A stretch of 64,000 bases of DNA from a bacterium (GTDB lineage: Bacteria; Patescibacteriota; Minisyncoccia; UBA6257; JAUSGH01). Location of the stretch: positions 1,454 to 65,453 of the forward strand of contig JAUSGH010000019.1 of assembly GCA_030649055.1 (NCBI GenBank), read 5' to 3'. This document shows positions 236-55,418 of this stretch, piece by piece (within the stretch, counting starts at the first letter, position 1; each line of letters begins with the position of its first letter). The position numbers and the translations under genes were made by a program. Below the pieces are notes generated by a model. That model had not been told where the DNA came from. It ran no database searches and saw nothing but the letters and a program-made list of their open reading frames with translations.

Positions 236-1111
236 ATGCAACCCCTCCGCGAACGAATTAGGGATGCCGAGGCGAAGAAAGTCGCCATCGGGCACTTCAA
301 CATCTCGAACCTCGAGCAGTTGAAAGCCGTGGCGCACGCCGCGATGCGGCTCGACGTGCCGGTCATTATCGGCGTCTCGGAGGGGGAGCGTGCCTACCTC
401 GGCCTTCACCACGTGAAGGACTTTGTCGCGAGCTACAACGCCGAACACGCGAAGGAGCACGGCTTCCGCCTGTACCTGAACGCCGACCACACGCACGACC
501 CGGGGAAGGTGCGCGAGGCGGCGCGGGTGGGGTTCGACGCGGTGCTTTTTGATGGCGGGAAGCTGCCGTTTGCGGAGAACGTGGCGCTCACGCGGACTGC
601 GGCGACGCTCGCGCGGGAGGTGCAACCGAATGTGCTCGTTGAGGGGGAGCTCGGGTACATCGGAAGTGGATCCCAGGTTCTCGAGAAAATTCCCGAGGGT
701 GCGGCGGTCACGCCAGTGCAGATGACGACACCCGAGGAGGCGGCGCGGTTTGTGAAAGAAACGGGCGTGGACCTCTTGGCACCCGCCGTGGGAAATGTGC
801 ATGGCCTCGTTGAGGGGGGGAACCCGAAGCTTAATATTGACAGAATCCGTGAAATCAAAAAGGCAGTAAACATCCCTCTCGTCCTCCATGGCGGGTCTGG
901 TGTCTCCGACGAGGATTTCCGTGCGGCCATCGAGGCCGGCATTTCAATCATTCATATTTCGACCGAACTCCGCCTCGCTTGGCGGGAGGGGATAGCGGAA
1001 TCGCTCCGGGCGAACCCGAACGAGGTGGCGCCCTACAAGCTCACCGAGCTCGCCCTCGCGAAGATGGAACGGGTAGCAGAGTCCCGGCTTCGGCTCTTCA
1101 ACCGAATCTAG
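236..1111 (+). CDS. fba: class II fructose-bisphosphate aldolase family protein
   Basis: ORF 104..1111 trimmed to ATG at 236 (MQPLRERIRDAEAKKVAIGHFN). Class II aldolase hallmarks NADHTHD, EGELGYIGSGS, LVLHGGSG. TAG stop. Confidence 0.8.
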   Translation: MQPLRERIRDAEAKKVAIGHFNISNLEQLKAVAHAAMRLDVPVIIGVSEGERAYLGLHHVKDFVASYNAEHAKEHGFRLYLNADHTHDPGKVREAARVGFDAVLFDGGKLPFAENVALTRTAATLAREVQPNVLVEGELGYIGSGSQVLEKIPEGAAVTPVQMTTPEEAARFVKETGVDLLAPAVGNVHGLVEGGNPKLNIDRIREIKKAVNIPLVLHGGSGVSDEDFRAAIEAGISIIHISTELRLAWREGIAESLRANPNEVAPYKLTELALAKMERVAESRLRLFNRI

Positions 1112-1229
1112 GCCAATCTATTGCATTTGAAGTTAGAATTTAGGATAATTCTCGCAGATCTTCGTGCGATGAGCGTCCTGATTCAAAAGGGAATTCGCGC
1201 GTTTTTGTATCATATAGTGTGGAGGGCGC

Positions 1230-1532
1230 ATGCTTTTCAAAGTTGTGTTTGGGTATTGGGTTGATTGGAGCGAACCGATATTTGACAGCGCTTCAAAGGA
1301 GGAAAAGGAAGAGGTTCGGAGTCGGCGCGAGGTATTTTGGGTGGAAGCAGAGGATGAGGACAAGGCACGCAGGTACGCACAACGATTTGAGGGGCTTGAA
1401 ACGAATTCATATGAAGGCCTCGGAGATTTACTGGAGATTTCGGTCGTTACTCCGGAAGAGGTTAAGAGCTTGCCGAGTCTTGTGGTGTATGAGAGGTATC
1501 TGCCAAAGAAAGAAAGGTTGTATTTGAACTGA
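1230..1532 (+). CDS. hypothetical 100-aa acidic protein inside low-GC insert
   Basis: Intact ORF in a region of lower GC than its flanks, followed by a hairpin terminator. No recognisable motif. Confidence 0.3.
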   Translation: MLFKVVFGYWVDWSEPIFDSASKEEKEEVRSRREVFWVEAEDEDKARRYAQRFEGLETNSYEGLGDLLEISVVTPEEVKSLPSLVVYERYLPKKERLYLN

Positions 1533-1553
1533 ACCGACGCTGCTCCAATAAAA

Positions 1554-1580
1554 AACTTCCTCTTTCTGAGGAAGTTTGCT
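1554..1580 (+). terminator. intrinsic terminator hairpin AACTTCCTC-tttct-GAGGAAGTT then TGCTTT
   Basis: Perfect 9-bp stem read directly from the sequence. Confidence 0.5.
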
Positions 1581-1593
1581 TTAATGAGGTCAT

Positions 1594-2343
1594 ATGGATA
1601 CGACATTGATTGCAAAGATCATTATGGAAATCCGCGCGGGTGCGGGGGGTGATGAGGCCTCGCTCTTCGCGGGCGACCTCATGCGCATGTACCAGCGGTA
1701 CGCGCAGAAGCGCGGGTGGGGATTTGCGATTCTCGACGCGTCCGAGTCCGGTGCGCGTGGCTATAAAACGGTGAGCGCGGAGGTAAAGGGAACTGGCGCC
1801 TATGAAGCTCTCCGGCACGAGTCCGGTGTGCATCGAGTCCAGCGCGTCCCTTCAACGGAGCGACAGGGAAGGATACATACTTCGACGGCGTCGGTCGCCG
1901 TCCTGCCTGTCGTGGAAGCGAAGCAGGTTGACCTGAAGGAGAGCGATATTGAGGTTTCATTCTCGCGTGCCGGCGGCCCCGGGGGGCAGAATGTGAACAA
2001 GGTGGAGACGGCGGTGCGTGTCACACACAAGCCGACCGGCATCGTGGTTTCCTGCCGCGTGGAACGCTCCCAGCACGCGAACCGTGAGAAGGCGATGGAG
2101 ATGCTGCGCGCGATGCTCTATGACGCCGAGCAGCGCCAGTCTGTGGGGTCTGTTGCAGACCTCCGGAAGTCGCAGATCGGCACCGCCGACCGGTCGGAAA
2201 AGATTCGCACGTACAACTTTCCCGAGGACCGCATCACCGACCACCGCATTGGGAAGAAGTTCCACAACATCGAGAAGATACTGGAAGGTGCATTCGACCC
2301 CATCGTGGAGGCGTGGGCGAAGCAGGGGAGCGTAAATAGTTAA
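1594..2343 (+). CDS. prfA: peptide chain release factor 1-like protein lacking N-terminal domain 1
   Basis: [18 protein letters not shown] box, [14 protein letters not shown] (RF1 PxT-type tripeptide, not SPF), GGQ motif ([10 protein letters not shown]), [15 protein letters not shown]-terminus. Only 249 aa. An in-frame TGA at 1585-1587 lies two codons upstream of the ATG. GAGG lies 5 nt upstream of the ATG. Confidence 0.7.
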
Positions 2344-2382
2344 CAAATTTTGATCTTCTGGAGTTTGTGGTATAGTAGAGAT

Positions 2383-2985
2383 ATGGAAACGTATCAACCT
2401 GAAAAGGAGAAAAAGTCTCCGAAAGTAATATTGCCAGAAATCTTGGGGAGTTCACTCAAATCCGCGATGGGCGGAAATAACCCAAGGTGTGGAATCACTG
2501 CCCTTTTTGAAGATGTTTTGGATAAATTCGAGCATGATCTTAGTTTAAGGAAGGGTGATCTTCACTATACTGACGGGACACTAGTGCAAAGACCAGCGGA
2601 CGCAATGCGTGAGGTTGAAGCAACTTTTAGTTGGGAAACGGATAAGAACCATACGGAAAGTTCTAGTGTCAGATTCTCGTCAGAAAATCCCGAAGAAGAA
2701 GAGGTGGTGAAGCAGCAATATAAAAATCCGCCACTATCCAGAGAGGCGGTTGTCGAACTAACAAAAATATTAGAAAATCTTCGATCGCAGGTTGAGCCAG
2801 TGACTATTTTCGACAGTCGCGGTTCTTATGACGCTTATATACTTGAAGATGAAAGCGGAAATAAATATACGCTTTCTAACCGTGGTAGTTCTGTTCGCCT
2901 TGAGAAGTTTGAGGATAAAATTAAGGAAATTCAAAAAATCATTGATGAGTCAACTGATTCAATAGAGAGACTCGAGGCAATCTAA
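2383..2985 (+). CDS. hypothetical protein (AT-rich gene)
   Basis: ORF 2350..2985, likely start METYQPEK. GC is clearly lower than in neighbours. No recognisable domain. Confidence 0.45.
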   Translation: METYQPEKEKKSPKVILPEILGSSLKSAMGGNNPRCGITALFEDVLDKFEHDLSLRKGDLHYTDGTLVQRPADAMREVEATFSWETDKNHTESSSVRFSSENPEEEEVVKQQYKNPPLSREAVVELTKILENLRSQVEPVTIFDSRGSYDAYILEDESGNKYTLSNRGSSVRLEKFEDKIKEIQKIIDESTDSIERLEAI

Positions 2986-2990
2986 AGTGC

Positions 2991-3019
2991 AAAAACCCCG
3001 ACCTTGGCCGGGGTTTTTC
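2991..3019. terminator. bidirectional terminator hairpin between convergent genes (AAAACCCCGACC-tt-GGCCGGGG-TTTTT)
   Basis: A-run, GC stem, T-run. Confidence 0.5.
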
Positions 3020-3033
3020 GTTCGAATAGGTCG

Positions 3034-4548
3034 CTAGCCGTTCGACTGGCTCGGGGAGGTCGATCCGCCTCCGGCGGGTTGCTTCGCCTGCTCGAGCACC
3101 TCGATGTCGTCCTGGAATCCGGCGGCCGCCTCGAGCACCTTCGATGCATAGAACTGGCAGGCGGAGCGTTGCCACCGGGAACCGCAGTAGTAGGTAGCGG
3201 ACGCCTTTTTTTCTGCCGCCGCGGTTTGTGCCGCCGCGCCGTTGTCCTCCAGGTAGAGTGCGGTCCCGGTGAATGCGTCCGAGTTGTTCCACGGGTTCGC
3301 GGGCTCGCTCCCGGTGATACGCGTGATCTCGGGGGAGTAGATTTTCCAGGTTGAGGGAATGAATTGCGCTGGCCCCATGGCGCCGCCGTAGGTGCCGTCC
3401 TGGTTCGGGCAGGAGATGCGCGCGAAAGCGGAGTGCGGATCGATGCCGAGCCCTCCGGTGAGCTCGAGGAAGTAGGCATGGTCCTTTGGGTTCATGGCGG
3501 TGGTACCGCCCTTCATCACCTGGTCATACGCGCACCGTCCGGTGTTTTTGCCGAGGAGCGATTCACGGTTCAGGATGCCGAGAATGAGCGCCGGACGGAT
3601 GCCGGCCGCGCCGCCCGCGAGCTTCGCGTACTCGTACGCCTTTTCGAAGGTGAGCTCACCGCCGCCCAGGAGCTCGAAGATGCGGTTTCGAATTTGCGCC
3701 GCCTCCTCTTTCGTCTTAGTAAGAATTTTCTGATATTCAGCCTCTTTCCCCTTCGTTGTTTTCAAGAGGGTCGCCTTTTGCGTCTGGGTCGACTGAACGC
3801 CACGCTTCTGCGCCTCTTGGATTACCTTCAAGTTTTCAGTATCCTCCCGTTCGAGCGCGAGCTCCTGCTTCTGGTCCAGGAGCTGTTCCCGAAGCTTTGT
3901 GATTTCCGCGAGTGAGTTCCGGAGACTCGACTGAACGAGCATCACATTTTCAATATTACCAAAAAAGTCAGAGAGACGGGCGTTGCCCACCAAAACCGCT
4001 AAGAGTGGCTCGCGGTCTGATTCGTAAAGGTTTCGGACCGCTCGCGAGATGGCATCCTTATGTACCACGATGCGGTTCTCGGTGCTCACGATGGTCCGTT
4101 GCGTGGCGGCAGTATCCTTCTCAAGCTGGCTGATGTTCAAGTTCACCGCCTTGATTTGGAGGTTCAGCTTATTGATTTTTGCGTTCAACGAACTGATTTC
4201 CCCGGAGAGCGACTTACCCTGCTTTTGGTACGACGCGATGGTCTTTTGGTGCTCCGCGATTTGCGTCTCAAGCTCTGTGAGCTGCGCTTCGAGCTCACTC
4301 CGCTGTTCTTTGGTTGTCGGCGTCGTCTCGGCGGTCTGCTCCGCGACTCCCTGGTCTTCCTGTGCGGCAACCTGGCCCGGCGCTTGTACGGAACCAAGCA
4401 TGAAACTCACCACCCCGAGGATGGCCACACATTTTATCGCGAGCCGCAGCTGCGATGCCGAATGGACCGGCGTCCACCCAAGTGAAATACGCCGCGGGAG
4501 GGTTCGGGCGACATCTCGGACAATCGGAGGAATCGAGGATTCAGGCAT
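3034..4548 (-). CDS. secreted coiled-coil protein with C-terminal MltB-like lytic transglycosylase (SLT_2) domain
   Basis: N-terminal signal-like segment, long heptad-like region (ELEAQLTELETQIAEHQKT, LNAKINKLNLQIKAV). C-terminus has ILGILNRESLLG and GAMGPAQFIPSTW, resembling MltB GAMGQxQFMPSTW. Confidence 0.6.
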   Translation of the reverse strand: MPESSIPPIVRDVARTLPRRISLGWTPVHSASQLRLAIKCVAILGVVSFMLGSVQAPGQVAAQEDQGVAEQTAETTPTTKEQRSELEAQLTELETQIAEHQKTIASYQKQGKSLSGEISSLNAKINKLNLQIKAVNLNISQLEKDTAATQRTIVSTENRIVVHKDAISRAVRNLYESDREPLLAVLVGNARLSDFFGNIENVMLVQSSLRNSLAEITKLREQLLDQKQELALEREDTENLKVIQEAQKRGVQSTQTQKATLLKTTKGKEAEYQKILTKTKEEAAQIRNRIFELLGGGELTFEKAYEYAKLAGGAAGIRPALILGILNRESLLGKNTGRCAYDQVMKGGTTAMNPKDHAYFLELTGGLGIDPHSAFARISCPNQDGTYGGAMGPAQFIPSTWKIYSPEITRITGSEPANPWNNSDAFTGTALYLEDNGAAAQTAAAEKKASATYYCGSRWQRSACQFYASKVLEAAAGFQDDIEVLEQAKQPAGGGSTSPSQSNG

Positions 4549-5364: not shown

Positions 5365-5616
5365 TTATTTCTGCTTCTTCACCCTCTGCTTCTTTGCCGT
5401 CTTTGGCGCGGCCGCGGCTTTCGTGCGGCGCGCCGTGAAGCGCTCGACGCGGCCCGCAGTGTCAATTAAGGATTGCTTCCCGGTGTAGTAGGGGTGGCAC
5501 TTCGCGCAGATTTCGACGCGGATGGATTCCCGGGTGGAGCCGGTCGTGAACGTGTTGCCGCAACCGCAGATCACTTTGGCGTTCGGGTAGTACCGGGGGT
5601 GAACACCTTGTTTCAT
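5365..5616 (-). CDS. rpmE: 50S ribosomal protein L31
   Basis: [28 protein letters not shown]...[10 protein letters not shown], the L31 CxxC zinc motif. Confidence 0.85.
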
Positions 5617-6192: not shown

Positions 6193-6396
6193 ATGAAGTA
6201 TCTGACCGTCATTCATAAGAGCAGATATGGGTATGACGTGCACGTTCCGGTGCTCCCGGGCTGTCACAGCCAGGGGAAACTAAAAAAAGAGGCGCTCGAA
6301 AACATCAGAGACGCCATTTTCACGTATCTGGCGATGTCTCACAGAGAACTCAAGGGGGCGGAGGTGCGGGAGGTGGAGGTTGCAATTCCTGCATAG
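6193..6396 (+). CDS. hicB: HicB-family antitoxin (UPF0150/RNase H-like fold)
   Basis: ORF 6088..6396 trimmed to MKYLTVIHKSRYGYDVHVPVLPGCHSQGKLKKEALENIRDAIFTYL, a typical HicB N-domain. Confidence 0.6.
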   Translation: MKYLTVIHKSRYGYDVHVPVLPGCHSQGKLKKEALENIRDAIFTYLAMSHRELKGAEVREVEVAIPA

Positions 6397-7501: not shown

Positions 7502-8618
7502 GTCTGTACGACCGGCGGGGCTTCTGCCGGTCAGAACATCGATTGAACCGACCGAACGTTCCGAACTGAATATTAGAAGCACTAAAAGTAAAAAAATGAA
7601 TGTAACATAGAATGTTTCTATTACGGTGAGCTTGTCGAACCGCTGGAAATTTTCTATGTTACCCCAAATCTGTTCCGAAGGTGGGCGTTTCGCCGACTGT
7701 GTGCACTCGTGCACATTCGAGGCGAGCCGCGAACCTTCTTTCGAGGATTTGATCCTGGTCCAGGATGAACGCTGGCGGCGTGGATAAGGCATGCAAGTCG
7801 AACGGTCGAGCGCACGTTGCGCTCGGTAGTGGCAAACGAGTTAGTAACGCCCTGGTACGTACCCCCGAGTCGGGCATAATTCCGCGAAAGCGGGACTAAT
7901 TCCCGATGGTGTCGCCTTAGGCGACTAAAGGAGCGATTCGCTCGGGGAGCGGCCTAGGTCCTATCAGCTAGTTGGTGAGGTAAAAGCTCACCAAGGCTAC
8001 GACGGGTAGGGGGGGTGAGAGCCCGATCCCCAACGAGGAGACTGAGACACGGCTCCTACACCTACGGGTGGCAGCAGTCGAGAATATTCGACAATGGGCG
8101 AAAGCCTGATCGAGCGACGCCGCGTGCAGGATGAAGGTCTTAGGATTGTAAACTGCTTTTCTACGGGAAGAAGTGTGCGTAGCACACAGTTTGTTAGTTC
8201 GTCAGTTACGCTTCGCTCTAGTTTATTAGTTGGTGAAACTAATTAACTAGCAAACGAACAGCGAGCGGAGCGAGCGGAACTAGTCAACTATGTGCTGCGC
8301 ACATTGACGGTACCGTGGGAATAAGGGGCGGCAAACTTCGTGCCAGCAGCCGCGGTAATACGAAGGCCCCGAGCGTTATCCGGATTCATTGGGCGTAAAG
8401 GGCGCGTAGGAGGTTCGGTCCGTCTCTCGTGAAATCTCGGAGCTCAACTCCGAACCCGCGGGGGAAACCGCCGAACTAGAGGGTGTTAGAGGCAGATGGA
8501 ACACACGGTGTAGGGGTGAAATCCGTTGATATCGTGTGGAACACCAAAGGCGAAGGCATTCTGCTGGGACACTCCTGACTCTGAGGCGCGAAAGCGTGGG
8601 GAGCAAAAAGGATTAGAT

Positions 8619-9690
8619 AAATCCCGTTCCGGCTCCAAAGAAACGGAACAAAGGGTGTCCCCTCCGACGGCGACGTCGGGGTGCGCATTCAGCTATATCG
8701 GGGAAGGCCGTCTTGTCAGGCGGTTAATCCCGAGGGAAGTTATTCAAGCCTCACTTTCGACTCTTTAATTATAGAGAAAAGTGGAGCTTGTGTAACCCCG
8801 TAGAGACTATGTAAGTAAGAAAATAGAAAATGACCAAGTCATTTTTGTTGGATCGATGTAAGGAAATTATTCTGGGTTCTTTGTTGGGTGATGGGTCCTT
8901 AAAGATCTATAAGCCCTACAAAAATGCCCGATTTTCCTTTCGACATTCGGTACATCAAAAAGATTATTTTTTCTGGAAAGTTGAAGAATTAAAAGAAATT
9001 TCCGGAGAGAAATCTTTTTGGGAACAAAAACCGAATAGTTTGGGAGGAGATATGTTGCGATACCAAAGTTTAGCATTAGAATTGCTTACGGAACTGCATC
9101 GGCTGACTTACGAGCATAATTGTCTCGTAATACGTCGAAAATGGCTGAACATGATGACGCCATTATCGCTTGCGATTTGGTGGCTTGATGATGGTTCGCT
9201 TATTGGCAATGGAAAGCGAGGTGTGTTTTGTACCGACCCGTTTTCGTTTCATGAACAAGAGATTTTATCGCAGTATTTACTCAAGGTTTGGAAAGTAAAA
9301 ACTGCGATTGGAAAAATTGTCCGCGAGCGGGAAGGAAAAAAAGTTGAGTACTATCGGCTATGGATTCGTTCAAGCGAAGAATTAAAAAAATTTCTTCGGA
9401 TAATCCTCCCCGAAATACCATCCGCATCTACATTGCCTAAAGTTCTTATTCTTTACAAAGATTCCCAATTACAGCAACGCTGGGTTTCTGAAGTTGTTGA
9501 AGCAACGCATTTTTCTCGAGAGATTATTGAAAGGTATCTTGCTGAGAAAAAAGCGAAATATAAGCGATTTCAGAAAATGATATAGTCCGATCCTCCGAGT
9601 AATCGGAGCATCTAATAGGTCTAAATCCCTAACGCTTAGGAATTAGGATTTAGAAATTAGAAATTGCAATTTTGCCAAGCAAAATTGTTG
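8619..9690 (+). mobile_element. group I intron in 16S rRNA (inserted after GGAUUAGAU, ends with G before ACCCUUGUAGUCC) carrying a homing endonuclease ORF
   Basis: Exon sequence diverges from the universal 16S at 8619 and resumes at 9691. The intron ends in G. Boundaries are accurate to about 1 nt. Confidence 0.75.
8830..9585 (+). CDS. LAGLIDADG homing endonuclease (two-motif, single-chain) encoded within the 16S intron
   Basis: ILGSLLGDGSL and AIWWLDDGSLIG motifs. Low-GC ORF inside the rRNA gene. Confidence 0.8.
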   Translation: MTKSFLLDRCKEIILGSLLGDGSLKIYKPYKNARFSFRHSVHQKDYFFWKVEELKEISGEKSFWEQKPNSLGGDMLRYQSLALELLTELHRLTYEHNCLVIRRKWLNMMTPLSLAIWWLDDGSLIGNGKRGVFCTDPFSFHEQEILSQYLLKVWKVKTAIGKIVREREGKKVEYYRLWIRSSEELKKFLRIILPEIPSASTLPKVLILYKDSQLQQRWVSEVVEATHFSREIIERYLAEKKAKYKRFQKMI

Positions 9691-9786
9691 ACCCTTGTAG
9701 TCCACGCCCTAAACGATGCTGATTAGCTGTCTCGAGTATCGACCCTCGGGGTGGCGTAGCTAACGCGTTAAATCAGCCGCCTGGGA

Positions 9787-9818
<32 letters not shown>

Positions 9819-9829
9819 AGACGGGGACT

Positions 9830-9864
<35 letters not shown>

Positions 9865-9942
9865 GTAAGCGAAGAACCTTACCAGGGCTTGAAATGCACT
9901 TGAAGACCGGCAGAAACGTCGGTCGTCTCTCAAGGACAAGTG

Positions 9943-9973
<31 letters not shown>

Positions 9974-10828
9974 ATCGTGAGACGTTCCCTTAAGTGGGGT
10001 AACGAGCGCAACCCCTCTCTGGTGTTATAAGTGTCACCGGAAACCGCCCCCGTTTTTGCCCGCAAGCAATGAAATGCTTGTGTTCAAAAACGGGGGAGGA
10101 AGGCGGGGATGACGTCAAATCCGCATGGCCCTCTGATGCCCTGGGCCACACACGTGCTACAATGGCCGTTACAAAGGGTTGCCAAGCCGCAAGGCGGAGC
10201 TAATCCCAAAAACACGGCCCCAGTTCAGATTGGAGGCTGCAACTCGCCTCCATGAAGTTGGAATCGCTAGTAATCGTAGGTCAGCTACACTACGGTGAAT
10301 ACGTTCTCGAGTCCTGTACTCACCGCCCGTCAAGCCAGCGGAGTCGGTAATACCTGAAGCCCAGCACTTTGTTCGCAACGCAGTTGTTAACAAAGTGCTG
10401 GGTAAGGGTAGGATCGATGATGAGGGCTAAGTCGTAACAAGGCACGCGTAGCGGAAGCTGTGCGTGGATCATCTACATAAACTTCTATAATTTTTGTTAT
10501 AGAACATAATAGATCGGAGCGCGTCGAAAGGCGCGCGTATGGCGTTCGTCGATGAGCCAAAAGTCTCGACGCGGACTTGCTTTCTGATGAAGCAAGGTTG
10601 GGATAACGCAAAAGTTTTTGATCCTTAGTTTTTACAAAAAATGCGAATGAGGCATTGCGCTCTCTTTCGCGTTTTTTGGTTGTCGTGTAACATAGAATAC
10701 ATGCCCCGTGCTACAACTTCGATGGCGCATAAGCGCGTAGAGATAGGCGAAGTCGGCGCGGAACAAGAGATGCTCTTAACATCAACGACAACCCATTATC
10801 AACATCAATCGAAGTTGTAGCACAGGGT

Positions 10829-27234: not shown

Positions 27235-27984
27235 ATGATCAGGATGACCTATCCAAGGAAATTGTATTTAATAGCCCAAATTAAACTTTGGGGTATTCTT
27301 TTCGCAATGGTGGTTTTTTTGTATCTTGATCTCCGCTATTTTTTTAGCAACACAAGTTTTACCCTCAAAACCGTTGAACTACTTCTGGCTACGTTCATCG
27401 GTTATATTTTTTACCCAATACACTCGGCTTTTCAAAAAAGAGTTGACGAAATTCAAGAAAAAATCTTAATCGAAGCAGGTTCCGCAAAGTTGGGATTCAA
27501 GGGGGAAGACAAGGTTGCTGAATGGCTTGAAGAGTCGTTACCGACAGACAAGTATTCAATTTTACGAAACGTTACTTTACCCGAACATAAGTTTGACATT
27601 GATTTTGTTATCATCGGACCTCAAGGAGTCATTGTGTTGGAGGTCAAAAACTTTAGCGATCAGAGAACTTTTATTGAGGATGAATACTATCAGGTTAAAG
27701 ATGGACAGAGATACGTCTTGTCCGTCGATTTCGATCCTAGATTTCAGGTACAATTGCATGTTTATTATCTCAGAAAGTATTTGGAGGATAACGGGCTTCG
27801 CGACGTCAGAATTTTAAAAGCTATTGTTTTTCCTAAAAGCGACGCGGCAAATGTTATTGGAAGCGTTGGCGTCTATATCGCAAGCGGACTTGATGCGTTA
27901 AAGAGGTTTTTTGATGGTGCAACTTTTGACCCTAGATATACGTCGGAACTTCGATCAAGAATCAAAGCAGTTTTATCGAAATAA
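27235..27984 (+). CDS. membrane-anchored NERD (nuclease-related) domain protein, low-GC gene
   Basis: Two N-terminal TM segments, then GFKGEDKVAEWLEE...YSILRNVTLPEHKFDIDFVIIGPQGVIVLEVKN, the NERD pattern. GC is clearly lower than in neighbours. Confidence 0.6.
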   Translation: MIRMTYPRKLYLIAQIKLWGILFAMVVFLYLDLRYFFSNTSFTLKTVELLLATFIGYIFYPIHSAFQKRVDEIQEKILIEAGSAKLGFKGEDKVAEWLEESLPTDKYSILRNVTLPEHKFDIDFVIIGPQGVIVLEVKNFSDQRTFIEDEYYQVKDGQRYVLSVDFDPRFQVQLHVYYLRKYLEDNGLRDVRILKAIVFPKSDAANVIGSVGVYIASGLDALKRFFDGATFDPRYTSELRSRIKAVLSK

Positions 27985-38299: not shown

Positions 38300-40972
38300 A
38301 TGAATAAAAACATATTAAGCGTTTGTATTCTTATCTCCGGCATGCTGATTTCCGGCGCGATCGTCGGCGTTACGGGAATCGTGAACGCGCAAGAAACGGA
38401 TTCGGCGCCTGCCGGTATTCAATTTCCGATAGCGGAATTGGGTAACTGCGGAAGCAAGGAGGAGTGTAAAGTGTTTTGCAATGACTCGCAAAACAGCGAC
38501 GTGTGCTTCGCGTTCGCTGAACGGAATAATCTGATGAGCGCCGAGGAATTGGATCACGCGAAAAAGTTTAAGGATGGCGGAATGATCGGTCCCGGCAGCT
38601 GCAAGGGGCAGGCGGAGTGCGACCAATACTGTGGCAACGGGGACCACATGGAGGAATGCATCGCGTTCGCGCAAAAGAACGGAATGATGTCGTCTCGGCA
38701 ATTGGAAGAATCGCAAAAAGTGTTGGCGGCTGTCAAAAAAGGGGTGAAGCCTCCTGCGTGCGGCGGACCTAAACAATGCGATGCGTATTGCGGTAGTCCT
38801 GAACATATGGAGGAATGCATGAATTTTTCTATTGAGGCCGGACTCATGCCCGACAACCAGAAAGAGCAGATGCAGAAGACGCTTGCCGCCATAAAGCGGG
38901 GAGTGAAACCACCTGCGTGCCGTGGTCCGCAGGAATGTGATGCGTATTGCAGTAACCCCGACCACATGGAAGAGTGCGTGAATTTTGCCGTAGAGAGCGG
39001 GATGATGCCGGACAATCAAAAGGAGCAAATGCAGAAAACTTTGGGCGCGCTCAAACAGGGCATTAAACCGCCGGCGTGCCAGCCGAATCGGCCACCAAAT
39101 CAGCAAGGGCAACCTGGTGGACCCGGTCAGCAAGGTGGTCCGAATGAAGGCCAAGGTTTTAACCCGGGCTCCGGAGCGAACGGCAACGGTCCGGGTCGCG
39201 GTCAGGGCGGTCCGAGTGAGCAATTTAATCGACCGGACAATGGCTTGCCGTCGTGTGACCAGTATTGCGGCGAAGATAGCCACGTTGATGAATGTGTGAA
39301 ATTTTCCGTGGCGGTCGGCAATATGACGGAAGAGCAGGCGCAGGTTTCTATAAAAACCCGCGGCAAAGGTCCGGGCGGATGCGTGGGGAGGGAAGCGTGC
39401 GATGCGTTTTGCGGCAATCCTGACAACCAAGAAACCTGTTTTAATTTCGGAAGAGACAACGGAATGATTCCGCCTGAGGATTTGCAGCGCATGGAGGAAG
39501 GCCAGCAGCGTATGAAGGAATCGTTTTCGCAGATGCCGCAGGAAGTTGCGGATTGTCTCGCGACTTCTCTCGGCGCTGATGTTGTTGAAAAGATAAAGAG
39601 CGGATCCGGGGTCAATCCGTCGGTTGGCCGCGCGATGGGAGAATGTTTCCAAAAAAATTCTCCGCGGCAGCCGGATGGGCAGCAGCCCGGAGGGCCCGGT
39701 CAATTCGGCCAGTCGGGACAAAGCGGTCCGGGCGATCCTATGTCCGCGGATCTGAAAGAATGTGTTCGATCTCAAGTTGGAGAAGATGGTCTTACAAGAA
39801 TGCAGTCCGGAAATGTTGACGACTCCGCGTTTATGGAGAAAGTGCAAACGTGTTTTGAGAAATTCGGTCAGCCGGGTCAGTTTGGTCAACCTGGGCAATT
39901 TGGTCAGCAAGGACAAAATCAGACCGGACAGCAAAATGAGCAGATTCTGCCATGGGCGGATATGTGCGAACCTGATGGAAACGGGAATCCGACGGCGTTG
40001 GCGTGCGTTGACGGGACCGGAAAATTTGTAGTATCGGCAAAGGTAGGCTCAGATGGAAATCCGGTTTGTCCTGAAGGTTCGACGGCGAAGTGCGGTGATT
40101 ATCATCAGGATAATCAACGGAGTCAGTTTAATCAGGGCCAACCCGGTCAGAATCAAGATGATCGGGGTCAGTTCGGTCAACCGGGTGAGCCCGGACAGCC
40201 GGGCCAGCAAGGGCGGGGTTTTGGTCAGTTCATCAAAGGGTTCTTCGGGGGTCAACAGGATCAATCAAATCAGCAGGGTCCGCAGGGACAAAATCAGCCA
40301 GGTCTGGGCGGTATAAATCCGGGTAATCAGCAGATGCCGCAACAGGCCGGTCCCGGTGGCTGCAAAGGGCCGGAGGAGTGCCAAAAATACTGTACTGCTA
40401 ATCCGGAAGTATGTAAAAATTTCCAGCCGCCACAAAATCAACAAGGTCAGCCGGGACGCAATCAGCAGGGGCAACAACAAAAGCAAACCGGTCAGCGAGG
40501 ACAAATACAGCCTAACCAGCCTAAACAGCAAGGTGCCGGCTTGGGTCCCTGTGGTACGGGTCCGGGTACTTGTTCGGGTATAGGGCCTGATGATGTGAAA
40601 GGTAATAGGGGAAACGGCCCCGGCGGTCCTAACGAGGGACAAGGCTTTGATCCCGGCACAAGACAGCGTGGAGATGGCTCTGGTCAAGGTGGTCAACCCG
40701 GACAATCGGGACAGTTTCCTCCGGGAGGGGCATCGTCCGGACAATTCCCCTCCATTCCGCAATTTATACAAGGGCAACCCGGATCGACCGGTCAATTCCC
40801 GTCCCCCGGACAGTTTCCGTCCCCTCCGCAGTTTATGCAGGGACAACCCGGTCCGACCGACGGAACGCAACCCGGTCAGTTTGTGCCGCCGCCGCCGAGC
40901 CAATCCGGACAACCGGGACAATTCAATCCGCCCGTAGAGATGCAACCCCAACAACCGCCGCCGCAGCCGTAA
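38300..40972 (+). CDS. giant secreted Cys-rich repeat protein (about 7 copies of a ~57-aa C-x-G-x-x-E-C-D-x-Y-C-G-x-P-D-H-M-E-E-C-x-x-F module, Q/G/P-rich low-complexity tail)
   Basis: Signal peptide. Repeats include KPPACGGPKQCDAYCGSPEHMEECMNFSIEAGLMPDNQKEQMQKTLAAIKRGV. Tail has QPGQFGQPGQFGQQGQ runs. Confidence 0.6.
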   Translation: MNKNILSVCILISGMLISGAIVGVTGIVNAQETDSAPAGIQFPIAELGNCGSKEECKVFCNDSQNSDVCFAFAERNNLMSAEELDHAKKFKDGGMIGPGSCKGQAECDQYCGNGDHMEECIAFAQKNGMMSSRQLEESQKVLAAVKKGVKPPACGGPKQCDAYCGSPEHMEECMNFSIEAGLMPDNQKEQMQKTLAAIKRGVKPPACRGPQECDAYCSNPDHMEECVNFAVESGMMPDNQKEQMQKTLGALKQGIKPPACQPNRPPNQQGQPGGPGQQGGPNEGQGFNPGSGANGNGPGRGQGGPSEQFNRPDNGLPSCDQYCGEDSHVDECVKFSVAVGNMTEEQAQVSIKTRGKGPGGCVGREACDAFCGNPDNQETCFNFGRDNGMIPPEDLQRMEEGQQRMKESFSQMPQEVADCLATSLGADVVEKIKSGSGVNPSVGRAMGECFQKNSPRQPDGQQPGGPGQFGQSGQSGPGDPMSADLKECVRSQVGEDGLTRMQSGNVDDSAFMEKVQTCFEKFGQPGQFGQPGQFGQQGQNQTGQQNEQILPWADMCEPDGNGNPTALACVDGTGKFVVSAKVGSDGNPVCPEGSTAKCGDYHQDNQRSQFNQGQPGQNQDDRGQFGQPGEPGQPGQQGRGFGQFIKGFFGGQQDQSNQQGPQGQNQPGLGGINPGNQQMPQQAGPGGCKGPEECQKYCTANPEVCKNFQPPQNQQGQPGRNQQGQQQKQTGQRGQIQPNQPKQQGAGLGPCGTGPGTCSGIGPDDVKGNRGNGPGGPNEGQGFDPGTRQRGDGSGQGGQPGQSGQFPPGGASSGQFPSIPQFIQGQPGSTGQFPSPGQFPSPPQFMQGQPGPTDGTQPGQFVPPPPSQSGQPGQFNPPVEMQPQQPPPQP

Positions 40973-41018: not shown

Positions 41019-43781
41019 TTGTTTGTTCGCGGAAGCGGCACGCATGCAATGTGCTACAATGAAGGCATGAATGGCTGTAATAATTATGCGTATTGTACAT
41101 CAGCGCGACGGTTTGTCGCGGGTTTTATTATGTTCGCGAGTTTATTTCCGGCCGGTTTTTCGCTCGCAGTGTATAGTCCGATTAATTATTTTCAAATTAC
41201 TTATTCGCCTACGGTGTTCAGTAAAACTCTGATAACGAACGGGGGGACTTTTACCGCCACAATTAAAAGCAAGGGCGTTGCAACGCAAAACCCTCCATCT
41301 TCAGCGGATGCGGTCAGATTTTCATATCGTTACACTGCCAATAATAAAGCAACCGGTAAGGAGATCGTGTTGAATCCGTTACAAACTCTTACCGTAGAAC
41401 CCTTCCCGCAAAAACAGGGAGAAAGTTATTCAGCGACGAATGTAGCGTCGCTGCGGTTTCCCGCAGGGAGCGCCTCGGGCGATTATACGGTGGTTGAGAC
41501 AATTACCAATATTGAAATGAAAGACTCCGGACTTGATTGGCGACCCGCTCCTAAACCCTCTAAACCCGCTCCGCCCACGAAACCCTCCGCGCCGTCACAA
41601 CCAACCCAGCCGTCCGGTCCGGGGAGCGGGGGAACAGAGTCGTCACAACCTACGCAACAATCTAAACCCACCAAACCATCAAAGCCACCCGAGCCAACAC
41701 GGCCATCTGAACCCACAAGACCGGCAGAACCGACTGCGCCTCCGGGACCTCGCCGTGAAATAGGGACGGTAACATATGCGCCGGCAGTTGCGCCGGAACC
41801 AATGATCCCTGCGCCGGAGCCGGAGTTAGCAACAGAACCGGAATTAATACCGGTTTCTGATCTCAAGGCAGCGCCGGCAGCAAGATCTACTGTAGCCGCA
41901 TTGGCTCTTTCGCCGGCTTCTGTTATTGGTGGCGCGACTTCAGTCGGTAAAATTACATTAGTCAAGCCCGCGCCCGTAGGCGGTCAGGAGGTGATGTTGC
42001 TGTTGATGGCCCCCAATAACACCTTGTCGTTTCCCGCGAAAGTGACAGTGAGTGCTGGCGCAACAACCGGTATTTTTAATATCACGACCAAGGCAGTAAA
42101 TTCGCCGTTGAATGTGACTATTACGGCTACGTTGGGCATGGGTAGTCCAAAGCAAGCCGCTGTATTAACCATTAACCCGACACCGATTCTAACCGTGTCC
42201 GCGTTGTCTATATCTCCGGCAACGGTTACGGGCGGTGACTCCGCAATTGGCACGGTGACGTTGAGTGGTCCCGCGCCTACCAGCAATAAAGTTGTGCGGC
42301 TATCTGCTTCGCCAAGCGATTCGCTAATAATTCCAGGGAATGTGGTTGTGAAAGCTAGTGAGACGTCGGCTACGTTTGATATTAAAACCAAAAAGGTTAC
42401 ATCTGCTGCGAGTGCGATTATTACAGCCACACTTGATAGCTCCCAAAAAACCGCTTCGCTTACGATCAATTCGGCGCCTGCGGTTTGCGCCGGCACATGT
42501 GTCCGCTCCGATCAGCCGGGTCCTTCGGGTATGATGGGTCAAGGAACCGATAGTTGTCCGTCTGCGAAGACCGGTTCTTATAGATGCCGGTTGTTTAGTA
42601 CGTGCTATTATTACACCCCACAGGTTTGCTATGTTCCCATCCCAATTCCTCTTATATTAAATGTTTCTCCGGCATCAGTGATCAATAACACTTCCGCGGT
42701 CGGCACCGTTATTTTGGGTTATCCCGCGCCTGCCGGCGGGCAAGTTGTGCAATTGTCGGCCAACACCTCTGCTGTAACGGTTCCCACGAACGCGACAGTC
42801 CCGGCTGGAGCGACAATGGGTACTTTCGAGATTAAAACCAATACGGTGAGTTCAATCGCGCGCGCGACCATTGAGGCAACGCTGGGTAATTATCGGGGAA
42901 GTGCGACGCTTACCGTTGAACCGACTCCGCCGCCGCCAATATTCGCGTTTACTGTGTCTCCGAATAGTCTCGTGAACGGCGGATCTGCGGTCGGCACAGT
43001 GACGTTGAGTAATCCTGCGCCTGCCGGTGGTCAAGTCGCGCAGTTGTTAGCGAATCCAACAGGTACCATTACGTATCCTTCAATTGTAAGGTTTCTCGCC
43101 GGCGCGACAACGGGCACGTTTAACATTCAGGCTACTAAAAAGGTGACCGCGCCTCTTACGGTGACCATTACGGCTACGCTGAATAACTTTCAGAAAATTA
43201 CTACGTTCATAGTGAATCCGACGCCTCCGCCACCCACCATGTCTGCGGTGACTGTATCCCCGGCGCAACTGGTTGGTGGCGCCGCCGCGGTCGGCACGGT
43301 CACTTTGGATAGCGTCGCGCCCGCTAACGGTCAGGTGGTGATGTTGTCGTCTAATACCTTTGGCGTCTCATTGTATGGCGACACATTCACTACTTCGTGG
43401 TATTCGTGGTCGCCGCCTCCTCCGCAAGTAACAGTGAAGGCCGGAGCTACAACGGGCACGTTTAAAATCCAAACCAATAAAGTCAGTTCACTCGTAACCG
43501 CGGTCATTACGGCCACGGCAAATAAGTCGCAAAAAACCGCTCAATTCACGATCAATCCGGCACCCGTAGCTTGCACTGACAGTGATAACGGAAGGAATTA
43601 TACCGTGAAGGGATCCGTTAAAACCGCGACGTTCTCCGGAAATGATAGTTGCGACGATTCTAAGCTGGCTGAATATTATTGTCTGAATTCGCCAAGTGCA
43701 TATGGCGATATGTTTGGCGTAGTCGAATATAACTGTCCGAATGGTTGCAAGGACGGGGCGTGCTTGCCGGCTCCACGCTGA
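41019..43781 (+). CDS. large cell-surface protein with proline-rich linker and about 7 tandem ~95-aa Ig-like repeats, Cys-rich C-terminus
   Basis: Repeat pattern SP-x-SV-x-GG-x-SAVGTVTL-x-PAP-x-GGQVV-x-LSAN...AGATTGTF-x-I-x-T...ATL...KTA-x-LTINP. Linker PAPKPSKPAPPTKPSAPSQPTQP. Confidence 0.6.
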   Translation: MFVRGSGTHAMCYNEGMNGCNNYAYCTSARRFVAGFIMFASLFPAGFSLAVYSPINYFQITYSPTVFSKTLITNGGTFTATIKSKGVATQNPPSSADAVRFSYRYTANNKATGKEIVLNPLQTLTVEPFPQKQGESYSATNVASLRFPAGSASGDYTVVETITNIEMKDSGLDWRPAPKPSKPAPPTKPSAPSQPTQPSGPGSGGTESSQPTQQSKPTKPSKPPEPTRPSEPTRPAEPTAPPGPRREIGTVTYAPAVAPEPMIPAPEPELATEPELIPVSDLKAAPAARSTVAALALSPASVIGGATSVGKITLVKPAPVGGQEVMLLLMAPNNTLSFPAKVTVSAGATTGIFNITTKAVNSPLNVTITATLGMGSPKQAAVLTINPTPILTVSALSISPATVTGGDSAIGTVTLSGPAPTSNKVVRLSASPSDSLIIPGNVVVKASETSATFDIKTKKVTSAASAIITATLDSSQKTASLTINSAPAVCAGTCVRSDQPGPSGMMGQGTDSCPSAKTGSYRCRLFSTCYYYTPQVCYVPIPIPLILNVSPASVINNTSAVGTVILGYPAPAGGQVVQLSANTSAVTVPTNATVPAGATMGTFEIKTNTVSSIARATIEATLGNYRGSATLTVEPTPPPPIFAFTVSPNSLVNGGSAVGTVTLSNPAPAGGQVAQLLANPTGTITYPSIVRFLAGATTGTFNIQATKKVTAPLTVTITATLNNFQKITTFIVNPTPPPPTMSAVTVSPAQLVGGAAAVGTVTLDSVAPANGQVVMLSSNTFGVSLYGDTFTTSWYSWSPPPPQVTVKAGATTGTFKIQTNKVSSLVTAVITATANKSQKTAQFTINPAPVACTDSDNGRNYTVKGSVKTATFSGNDSCDDSKLAEYYCLNSPSAYGDMFGVVEYNCPNGCKDGACLPAPR

Positions 43782-46660: not shown

Positions 46661-46704
46661 TTAATAACATTCCGACATTCTCAAGAATGTCGGAATGTTA
46701 TTAA
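46661..46704. repeat. palindromic element copy A (TTAATAACATTCCGACATTCTCAAGAATGTCGGAATGTTATTAA)
   Basis: Perfect palindrome. Embeds the TAA stop of the helicase gene. Confidence 0.85.
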
Positions 46705-55335: not shown

Positions 55336-55418
55336 TTGTCGTGGGCATCGGATTTCTTTTAAGGAGGCAAATGCACTCATTATTTATAGTATAGCATGCG
55401 TGAAACGGTTTTTGTGAT

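What the first reader, a model, noticed from the sequence alone, without database searches (positions are those of the whole stretch)
1112..2343. RF1 homolog missing its entire N-terminal domain, next to a low-GC insert with an orphan ORF
The ORF 1594..2343 carries every RF1 core element: a PST tripeptide in the RVPxTE context, GGQ, and the RTYNFP C-terminus. It starts about 10 residues before the [11 protein letters not shown] box. This means the ~100-aa domain 1, which contacts the L7/L12 stalk and RF3, is absent. An in-frame TGA (1585-1587) two codons upstream of the ATG blocks any extension. The ATG has a GAGG 5 nt upstream, which is rare in this window. The 480 bp between fba and this gene (1112-1593) is visibly lower in GC and encodes only an unrelated 100-aa acidic ORF with its own terminator. 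Either prfA was decapitated by an insertion yet is still expressed, or this is a naturally minimal RF1, which would say something about termination in this lineage.
Basis: partly seen in the sequence, partly recalled or inferred. Interest (0 to 1): 0.6.

Follow-up and report, generated by a model that had tools for sequence, protein, structure and literature searches.

The report
Naturally short release factor 1
This gene encodes a release factor 1 that naturally lacks its whole N-terminal domain; the short form is conserved across large groups of ultra-small Parcubacteria, so it was not broken by the neighbouring low-GC DNA.

Summary
ORF 1594-2343 encodes a 249-aa RF1 with intact codon-recognition and catalytic parts (PST, GGQ, RTYNFP) and no domain 1. 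It matches only positions 101-194 of the Pfam PCRF profile.

The "decapitated by an insertion" reading is wrong. The 120 closest database homologues are nearly all 231-258 aa and start at the same point. All have GGQ. Named ones are Parcubacteria-group Patescibacteria. A relative with only 40 bp between fba and prfA is equally short.

No trace of domain 1 exists in any frame of the window or of 14 related loci.

A second short clade (Portnoybacteria group) has L31 abutting the start codon. Across Parcubacteria there is a graded series of about 355, 315-341, 299-309, 267-270 and 240-250 aa. A bootstrapped tree suggests at least three independent losses.

The flanking low-GC ORFs (100 aa and 200 aa) have no homologues and sit in variable spacers unrelated to the truncation.

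Most likely this is the cell's ordinary UAA/UAG release factor, working without L11 or RF3 contacts.

UGA is still a stop codon here. The genome's RF2 and RF3 status could not be determined. I found no paper describing this form.

The parts
1594..2343 (+). prfA: 249-aa RF1 made of domains 2/4 (codon recognition) and domain 3 (GGQ). Domain 1 is absent.
   Evidence: Pfam PCRF 101-194/194 and RF-1 4-116/116. NCBIfam prfA 371 and 358 bits, against prfB 243, prfH 85 and ArfB 58. PDB RF1 alignments start at residue 87-112. The AF2 model matches ribosome-bound RF1 with TM 0.78-0.81.
1849..1857 (+). PST, the RF1 'PxT' tripeptide anticodon (residues 86-88), inside [18 protein letters not shown].
   Evidence: Sequence. 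Among 120 homologues the motif reads RVPxTE with x = V, S, E, T or A, and R[IV]HTS is present in all 120.
1981..1989 (+). GGQ catalytic motif (residues 130-132).
   Evidence: Sequence. GPGGQ is present in 120 of 120 homologues.
1585..1587 (+). In-frame TGA two codons upstream of the ATG; it blocks any N-terminal extension.
   Evidence: Sequence. All short-RF1 loci also have an in-frame stop shortly upstream; in L008 and L010 a longer upstream non-ATG start is possible (316 and 259 aa).
1580..1589 (+). Possible expression signals: TTTAAT (-10-like, 1580-1585, ending 8 nt before the ATG), overlapping GAGG (1586-1589, Shine-Dalgarno-like).
   Evidence: Sequence. Shine-Dalgarno motifs occur at only 2 of 26 starts. 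TANNNT hexamers end 4-10 nt before the start at 10 of 26 genes, against 6.8% background. Which signal is used is not shown.
1553..1577 (.). 10-bp stem-loop between the 100-aa ORF and prfA.
   Evidence: -18.3 kcal/mol for 1530-1600, z = -3.0. The T-tail is weak on the + strand.
1230..1532 (+). 100-aa acidic ORF with no homologues in the low-GC fba-prfA spacer. It is not part of the RF1 story.
   Evidence: No Pfam, NCBIfam, PHROG or PADLOC hit. No hit among 5.8 billion proteins, not even itself, so it was probably not called as a gene by the depositors. Absent from 83 related loci. AF2 pLDDT 57.
236..1111 (+). fba, class II fructose-bisphosphate aldolase; a conserved neighbour of the short prfA.
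   Evidence: Pfam E = 1e-72. Synteny in L001, L004, L005 and L007.
2383..2985 (+). 200-aa ORF with no homologues in the low-GC prfA-SLT spacer, preceded by TATAGT 6 nt before its ATG.
   Evidence: The only database hit is itself (NCBI hypothetical protein Q7R85_03950). It is also present in an independent Logan assembly of SRR13727527. The spacer is 88-239 bp in relatives and 690 bp here.
3034..4548 (-). SLT_2 lytic transglycosylase-like gene, convergent with prfA; a conserved neighbour.
   Evidence: Pfam. Synteny.
5365..5616 (-). rpmE (L31); part of the conserved prfA neighbourhood. In the second short clade it directly abuts prfA.

Best explanation
ORF 1594-2343 is the organism's ordinary RF1 in a naturally reduced two-module form. 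It has the codon-recognition superdomain 2/4 and the catalytic domain 3, and no N-terminal three-helix domain 1. The organism is a Parcubacteria-group member of the Patescibacteria (CPR).

Inferred mechanism:
- It binds the A site at UAA and UAG. It reads the codon with the helix-alpha5 tip (GGDEA), Q83, PST and the IHT(S) element.
- It swings the GGQ loop into the peptidyl-transferase centre and hydrolyses peptidyl-tRNA.
- It then leaves spontaneously when the subunits rotate. It cannot make the domain-1 contacts with the L11 N-terminal domain or with RF3.

The loss is evolutionary, not local. Domain 1 has been eroded stepwise and repeatedly within Parcubacteria. The low-GC ORFs with no homologues on either side of the gene are unrelated fillers of variable spacers.

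Shown here: architecture, conservation, orthology, synteny and the absence of any domain-1 remnant. Inferred: activity, codon specificity and independence from RF3 and L11.
For: Architecture: Pfam, NCBIfam and PDB alignments. The AF2 model superposes on ribosome-bound RF1 over 241-250 columns with TM 0.78-0.81.

Purifying selection:
- The 120 nearest 90%-identity clusters are 73-100% identical to the query. 113 of them are 231-258 aa.
- All 120 have GPGGQ and R[IV]HTS. The PxT motif varies only at x. The start position is conserved.

Orthology:
- The protein scores 371 bits on the prfA model, against 243 for prfB, 85 for prfH and 58 for ArfB.
- All sampled Patescibacteria RF1s, whether short, intermediate or full-length, form one clade with 94.5% bootstrap support.
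- The gene keeps the conserved fba / prfA / SLT_2 / L25 / L31 neighbourhood.

Not a local event:
- L005 has a 40-bp fba-prfA spacer and a 250-aa RF1.
- In the second short clade rpmE overlaps the prfA start.

No remnant or split gene nearby: the domain-1 HMM detects all 70 or so full-length and intermediate RF1s. It finds nothing at E <= 10 in six frames of the window or of 14 short-RF1 loci.

Graded series and repeated loss:
- Lengths run about 355, 315-341, 299-309, 267-270 and 240-250 aa.
- Bootstrap supports are 70% for clade 1, 99.5% for clade 2 (which mixes 239-242 and 302-309 aa forms) and 84.5% for the intermediate clade that contains the 270-aa L037.

Precedent:
- E. coli RF1 without domain 1 still recognises stop codons and releases peptide in vitro, and works in vivo, but no longer engages RF3 (Mora 2003, as summarised in PMC1586002).
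- Domain 1 contacts the L11 N-terminal domain and RF3 domain 3 (PMC3677378).
- RF1 and RF2 can complete termination without RF3 (PMC6742477).
Against: - No expression or activity data exist for any of these proteins.
- Only 64 kb of the genome is available, so a second, full-length RF1 elsewhere cannot be excluded directly.
- Absence of RF3 was not tested. It would not by itself explain the loss, because Thermus and Thermotoga lack RF3 yet keep domain 1.
- On L11-less E. coli ribosomes RF1 is reported to be inactive (a reviewer's remark in PMC1586002). Losing the L11-contacting domain may therefore need compensation that I did not identify.
- The tree is neighbour-joining on 232 columns. Support for clade 1 is only 70%.
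- The protein scores below NCBI's prfA equivalog cut-offs (371 < 400 and 358 < 423). This is why it is deposited as 'PCRF domain-containing protein'.
Confidence: 0.85

Rival explanations
1. Local decapitation: a low-GC insertion between fba and prfA removed the 5' third of a once full-length prfA in this genome. The remainder is a truncated, possibly still expressed, remnant.
For: The spacer 1112-1593 is lower in GC (0.45 against 0.61) and carries an ORF with no homologues.
Against: Hundreds of relatives have the same length and start position. Relatives with 40-bp and 189-bp spacers are equally short. No domain-1 remnant is found. Conservation indicates purifying selection.
Confidence: 0.02
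2. Sequencing or assembly error: a frameshift or misassembly near 1500-1600 hides an N-terminal extension.
For: None beyond the general error rate of MAGs. The independent Logan contig starts inside prfA and does not cover the start codon.
Against: No frame upstream encodes anything resembling domain 1. The same architecture appears in independent assemblies from JGI, ENA, NCBI and Logan.
Confidence: 0.01
3. Specialised paralogue: the short protein is an accessory release or rescue factor, functionally like PrfH or ArfB. A canonical full-length RF1 is encoded elsewhere in the genome.
For: PrfH also lacks domain 1. The rest of the genome was not available.
Against: All RF1 decoding residues are canonical. 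It scores as prfA (371 bits) far above prfH (85) or ArfB (58). There is no RtcB neighbour. It nests within Patescibacteria RF1 orthologues and holds their syntenic position next to rpmE, L25 and fba. In the 1.8-billion-representative search the next-best hits are full-length RF1s at only 50-59% identity, and none is a close full-length partner.
Confidence: 0.07
4. Split or replaced domain: the function of domain 1 is supplied in trans. The supplier would be either a separately encoded domain-1 protein elsewhere in the genome or a non-homologous small protein.
For: Small unannotated ORFs are frequent next to prfA. The rest of the genome was not searched.
Against: No domain-1-like ORF is found in 64 kb or in 14 related loci. 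The neighbouring small ORFs are not conserved between relatives. In clade 2 the neighbour is rpmE.
Confidence: 0.05

Closest known systems
Canonical bacterial RF1 (prfA; e.g. E. coli 360 aa, T. thermophilus 354 aa, T. maritima 342 aa)
   Same: Domains 2, 3 and 4 are 45-50% identical to these proteins. The PxT, GGQ, helix-alpha5 tip, R-I-H-T-S and RTYNFP elements are all present. The predicted fold matches ribosome-bound RF1.
   Different: The entire N-terminal domain 1 (about 100 residues, a three-helix bundle) is missing. This is the domain that contacts the L11 N-terminal domain and RF3. The protein falls below the NCBIfam equivalog cut-offs for that reason.
Engineered E. coli RF1 and RF2 lacking domain 1 (Mora et al. 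2003, as cited in PMC1586002 and PMC6514570)
   Same: The architecture is the same as the laboratory truncation. That truncation keeps codon specificity and peptide release and functions in vivo, but cannot engage RF3.
   Different: This one is natural, is fixed in large lineages, and has presumably been optimised over long evolution. I could not read the Mora paper itself.
PrfH (RF-H), the RtcB-associated release-factor homologue
   Same: It lacks domain 1, retains a codon-recognition-like domain and has GGQ.
   Different: PrfH has divergent decoding residues, is about 200 aa long and is always paired with RtcB. The window protein scores 85 bits against a cut-off of 166.65 on the prfH model, has canonical RF1 motifs and has no RtcB neighbour.
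ArfB (YaeJ) and ICT1
   Same: They have the GGQ domain and no domain 1.
   Different: ArfB also lacks domains 2/4 and has a basic C-terminal tail. The window protein scores 58 bits against a cut-off of 100 and keeps the full decoding superdomain.

Membership tests
Bacterial class-I release factor RF1 (prfA) | RF-1 catalytic domain with a GGQ motif | tested here: met
   PF00472 4-116/116, E = 1e-39. GGQ at residues 130-132, and GPGGQ in 120 of 120 homologues.
Bacterial class-I release factor RF1 (prfA) | RF1-type decoding elements: PxT tripeptide, helix-alpha5 tip G-x-x-E, Q before PxT, and I-H-T | tested here: met
   [17 protein letters not shown] and GRIHTS are all present and conserved. The prfA models outscore prfB, 371 against 243 bits.
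Bacterial class-I release factor RF1 (prfA) | N-terminal domain 1 (the first half of the PCRF profile; contacts L11 and RF3) | tested here: not met
   PCRF matched only at 101-194/194. The prfA profiles matched only from position 105 or 113. The domain-1 HMM finds nothing in the window.
Bacterial class-I release factor RF1 (prfA) | Score above the curated equivalog cut-off (NF001859: 400 bits; TIGR00019: 423.25 bits) | tested here: not met
   371 and 358 bits. The shortfall corresponds to the missing N-terminal positions.
Bacterial class-I release factor RF1 (prfA) | Orthology: groups with RF1 of related organisms and keeps their genomic position | tested here: met
   Patescibacteria RF1 clade with 94.5% bootstrap support. 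The fba / prfA / SLT_2 / L25 / L31 neighbourhood is conserved.
Bacterial class-I release factor RF1 (prfA) | UAA/UAG-dependent peptidyl-tRNA hydrolysis on the ribosome | not testable with these tools
   Needs biochemistry. It is inferred from motif conservation and from the activity of truncated E. coli RF1.
PrfH (RF-H) | Score above the prfH model cut-off, and an adjacent upstream RtcB gene | tested here: not met
   85.4 bits against a cut-off of 166.65. The neighbours are fba, ORFs with no homologues, and SLT_2.
ArfB | GGQ domain alone plus a basic C-terminal tail, about 140 aa | tested here: not met
   57.9 bits against a cut-off of 100. Domains 2/4 are present and the protein is 249 aa.

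The most novel reading that the evidence does not exclude
Translation termination in large parts of the Parcubacteria has been rewired so that class-I release factors no longer use the L11 / GTPase-associated-centre / RF3 axis at all.

On this reading, domain 1 became dispensable for the whole radiation. It was then lost independently at least three times, with intermediate two-helix stubs still visible. This loss might be coupled to the known reductions of the CPR ribosome, and RF2 might have undergone a parallel truncation.

That would make these the first bacteria whose essential stop-codon readers are tRNA-sized two-module proteins. It would also be a natural test of what domain 1 is for.
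Probability: 0.2. Interest if true: 0.7.

Novelty: new variant of a known kind. Interest (0 to 1): 0.5.

Why it matters
Domain 1 of RF1 and RF2 is present in essentially all characterised bacteria, including those that lack RF3. Its RF3-independent role (L11 contact, binding kinetics) is still debated.

A natural RF1 without domain 1, under strong purifying selection and fixed in large uncultivated lineages, would show that the domain is dispensable in vivo over evolutionary time. The intermediate grades and several independent losses add to that case.

It also gives ready-made sequences for biochemical and cryo-EM comparison. It adds the release factor to the list of reduced translation components in CPR bacteria.

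On the practical side, it explains why annotation pipelines label these genes only 'PCRF domain-containing protein'. It also warns against scoring them as truncated or pseudogenes in MAG quality checks.

Tried and rejected
- A second RF in the window or in 83 related loci: tblastn found none.
- RF2 and RF3 of this lineage: I found no way to reach them with the capped tools. The protein searches rank hits by similarity to the query, and I had no CPR RF2 to seed one. This remains open.
- The look-up of encoding contigs on the window's own RF1 (P0001): not on record. The 200-aa ORF was found only on a 4.5-kb Logan contig that begins inside prfA.
- Apparent short or oddly extended RF1 hits in the representative search (P0121, P0122, P0137, P0151 and others): these turned out to be misassembled duplications, contig-end fragments or frameshifted junk, not true short forms.
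- The 100-aa and 200-aa ORFs: Pfam, NCBIfam, PHROGs and PADLOC gave nothing. The one exception is a weak coiled-coil-type JetC match for the 200-aa ORF (E = 1.7e-5), which I regard as compositional.
- The single-sequence AF2 model of the 100-aa ORF was too poor (pLDDT 57) for a fold search.
- Flanking direct repeats as an insertion signature: nothing convincing.
- Sigma-70 promoter scan of 900-3200: no hits.
- Literature searches for a described CPR short RF1: six searches found no such paper.
- The first bootstrap attempt timed out. I redid it with a faster script.

Full report
**1. What is in the sequence**

ORF 1594-2343 (+) encodes 249 aa.
- Pfam places the C-terminal half of the PCRF profile (positions 101-194 of 194) on residues 8-101. 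It places a complete RF-1 domain on residues 111-218.
- NCBIfam ranks the two RF1 equivalog models first (371 and 358 bits). RF2 follows with 243 bits, PrfH with 85 and ArfB with 58.
- The RF1 alignments start at profile positions 105 and 113. The scores fall just under the curated cut-offs of 400 and 423 bits for that reason.
- Against solved structures, query residues 8-10 align to residue 87 of T. maritima RF1, 107 of T. thermophilus RF1 and 112 of E. coli RF1.
- The decoding and catalytic elements are all present: [28 protein letters not shown] and RTYNFP.
- The in-frame TGA at 1585-1587 and the GAGG at 1586-1589 are as described.
- Shine-Dalgarno-like motifs are indeed rare in this window, at 2 of 26 starts.
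- The fba-prfA spacer has GC 0.45, against 0.61 for prfA.

One addition: low-GC DNA lies on both sides of prfA. The downstream stretch (2344-3033) has GC 0.42 and holds a 200-aa ORF.

**2. The truncation is lineage-wide, not local**

A search of 5.8 billion proteins returned the window protein itself. It is deposited by NCBI as 'PCRF domain-containing protein' on a 68.8-kb MAG contig. The search also returned 119 other 90%-identity clusters at 73-90% identity.
- 113 of the 120 are 231-258 aa; the rest are 267-291 aa.
- Where named, they come from Jorgensenbacteria, Brennerbacteria, Zambryskibacteria, Minisyncoccia or 'Patescibacteria group'. These belong to the Parcubacteria group.
- All 120 have GPGGQ and R[IV]HTS. 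The PxT motif varies only at x. The N-termini line up as M-[D/E]-x3-I-x-K-I-I-L-E-I-R-A-G.
- 91 positions are invariant across 80 aligned members.

In the exhaustive search of 1.8 billion representatives, everything beyond this family is full-length RF1. Those proteins are about 355-365 aa and 50-57% identical, with the query aligned from their residue 105-115. Other apparently short hits in that list are fragments or frameshifted junk.

**3. Synteny separates the truncation from the insert**

Relatives keep the order fba, short prfA, then SLT_2, L25 and L31 on the opposite strand.
- The fba-prfA spacer is 40 bp in L005 (Jorgensenbacteria), 189 bp in L004, 482 bp in the window, 699 bp in L001 and 1169 bp in L007. 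The small ORFs inside it differ and are unrelated to each other.
- prfA is 241-250 aa in every one of these.
- The prfA-SLT spacer is 88-239 bp in relatives and 690 bp here.

The two window ORFs have no homologue anywhere.
- The 100-aa ORF (1230-1532) is not even present in the database as a called protein.
- The 200-aa ORF (2383-2985) hits only itself.
- Neither matches any family library, apart from a weak compositional JetC match for the 200-aa ORF.

They are accessory fillers of variable spacers. They are not the cause of the short RF1.

**4. No hidden domain 1**

I built an HMM from the N-terminal regions of 25 full-length and intermediate RF1s. It recovers every such RF1 in the fetched loci. 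It finds nothing, even at E <= 10 with filters off, in six-frame translations of the 64-kb window or of 14 short-RF1 loci.

This leaves no room for an upstream remnant, a frameshifted extension or a nearby split gene. No second RF homologue exists in the window or the loci.

**5. A broader pattern: graded and repeated loss**

A scan of GTDB species genomes, followed by ORF-length measurement, shows several grades among Patescibacteria:
- full-length, 341-360 aa (L016, L017, L021, L070);
- a large group of 315-341 aa with a deletion of about 30 residues in the first helices. This group includes RAAC4_OD1_1, Kaiserbacteria and Taylorbacteria;
- near-complete loss, 267-270 aa (L013; L037, a Nomurabacteria genome);
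- complete loss, 239-250 aa.

A second short family was seeded by P0125. It is 231-246 aa and includes Portnoybacteria. Close relatives of 299-309 aa retain only a two-helix stub of about 60 residues. In this family rpmE overlaps the prfA start by 1-4 nt. SLT_2, L25 and fba are still nearby.

A neighbour-joining tree on the 232 shared columns, with 200 bootstraps, gives these supports:
- all Patescibacteria RF1s together: 94.5%;
- the window's short clade: 70%;
- the Portnoybacteria-group clade, mixing 239-242 and 302-309 aa forms: 99.5%;
- the intermediate clade containing the 270-aa L037: 84.5%;
- the two short clades as sisters: only 14.5%.

This points to at least three independent complete or near-complete losses. 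The tree is crude and should be redone with maximum likelihood.

**6. Structure**

An AF2 model built from the 80-sequence alignment has pLDDT 73 and pTM 0.59. Its weak region is 182-202, the switch-loop area.
- It superposes best on ribosome-bound (open) RF1 from T. thermophilus and E. coli, with TM 0.78-0.81 over 241-250 columns.
- It fits the compact free crystal forms less well (TM about 0.6, rmsd 13-15 A).
- In many deposited ribosome complexes only about 242-260 RF1 residues are modelled.

**7. Mechanism (inferred)**

The protein should act as the UAA/UAG release factor. Domains 2/4 decode, the switch loop directs domain 3, and GGQ catalyses hydrolysis. Without domain 1 it cannot touch the L11 N-terminal domain or RF3 domain 3 (PMC3677378).

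Published work supports the feasibility of this.
- E. coli RF1 without domain 1 keeps codon specificity and release activity and functions in vivo, but cannot stimulate RF3 (Mora 2003, as summarised in PMC1586002).
- RF1 and RF2 can complete termination without RF3 through spontaneous subunit rotation (PMC6742477).

There is a caveat. Thermus and Thermotoga lack RF3 yet keep domain 1. Loss of RF3 alone is therefore not a sufficient explanation. Something else about these organisms or their ribosomes relaxes the constraint.

TGA closes 15 of 62 ORFs of at least 90 aa. These include the Pfam-verified FtsA, two PMT_2 genes, a beta-lactamase-family gene and an HD_3 gene. UGA is therefore a stop codon here, and an RF2 must exist elsewhere. 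I could not reach it.

**8. Expression signals**

The hairpin at 1553-1577 sits 16 nt before the ATG.

Many genes in the window have a TANNNT hexamer ending 4-10 nt before the start codon: 10 of 26, against 6.8% background. This suggests transcripts with no or very short leaders. prfA has TTTAAT ending 8 nt before its ATG, overlapping the GAGG. Which signal is used is unknown.

**9. Novelty and verdict**

Six literature searches found no description of a natural RF1 lacking domain 1 or of CPR release factors. The only related case is PrfH. The library is incomplete, so prior mention cannot be excluded. The sequences themselves have been public for years under generic names.

I rate this a new variant of a known kind. 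The protein is an orthologous RF1 that fails one defining structural feature of the family, domain 1. It is a real, conserved feature of moderate specialist interest. The 'insertion' alternative and the link to the orphan ORF are not.

Noticed in passing
window 7737-10479 (ORF 8830-9585): The 16S rRNA gene spans 2743 nt for a 1533-position model. It therefore carries about 1.2 kb of insertion. Inside it is a low-GC (0.38) 251-aa ORF that matches the LAGLIDADG_2 homing endonuclease family (E = 2e-34). rRNA insertions of this kind are, as far as I recall, already known in CPR bacteria.
   Followed up: partly
window, 26 gene starts (e.g. 2383, 25585, 44395, 46701-48431 on the - strand, 53410-55380 on the - strand): Shine-Dalgarno motifs are almost absent, at 2 of 26 starts. 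In contrast, 10 of 26 starts have a -10-like TANNNT hexamer ending 4-10 nt upstream of the start codon, against 6.8% at random positions. This suggests widespread leaderless or very short-leader mRNAs.
   Followed up: partly
window 2344-3033 (ORF 2383-2985): This is a second low-GC (0.42) stretch, immediately downstream of prfA. It holds a 200-aa ORF with no homologues (NCBI hypothetical protein Q7R85_03950) and its own TATAGT. A bidirectional terminator hairpin follows at 2991-3018. In relatives this spacer is only 88-239 bp.
   Followed up: yes
L014, L018, L029, L030, L041, L050, L051, L062, L064, L071, L075; P0309, P0316, P0320, P0372, P0375; L013, L037: Parcubacteria RF1s form intermediate grades: 315-341 aa with about 30 residues of the first helices deleted, 299-309 aa with only a two-helix stub, and 267-270 aa with an N-terminal tail of about 25 residues. 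Together they make a stepwise erosion series for domain 1.
   Followed up: partly
L085-L089 (e.g. L088 8632-9081, L089 8542-8994): EF-Ts genes in the Portnoybacteria-group loci encode only 131-150 aa. I recall bacterial EF-Ts as much longer than this (not checked here). This may be another shortened translation factor.
   Followed up: no
window 27235-27984: A low-GC (0.38) 249-aa ORF with a NERD nuclease-related domain (E = 3e-19) sits between ftsZ and a ribonucleotide reductase gene. It looks like another accessory island.
   Followed up: no
window 38300-40972 and 41019-43781: Two adjacent large ORFs (890 and 920 aa) have no Pfam match at E <= 1e-5.
   Followed up: no
L007, L008 (CAYIEJ010000023.1, CAYUKW010000022.1): These records are labelled 'uncultured Candidatus Saccharibacteria'. 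They nevertheless carry the Jorgensenbacteria-type short RF1 and its fba / prfA / SLT_2 synteny, and they cluster inside the window's clade. The taxonomic labels of these TPA assemblies are probably unreliable.
   Followed up: no
window about 6193-6396 (mapped from L084 4131-4334): A 67-aa HicB-like antitoxin gene was called in the independent Logan assembly of the same region.
   Followed up: no
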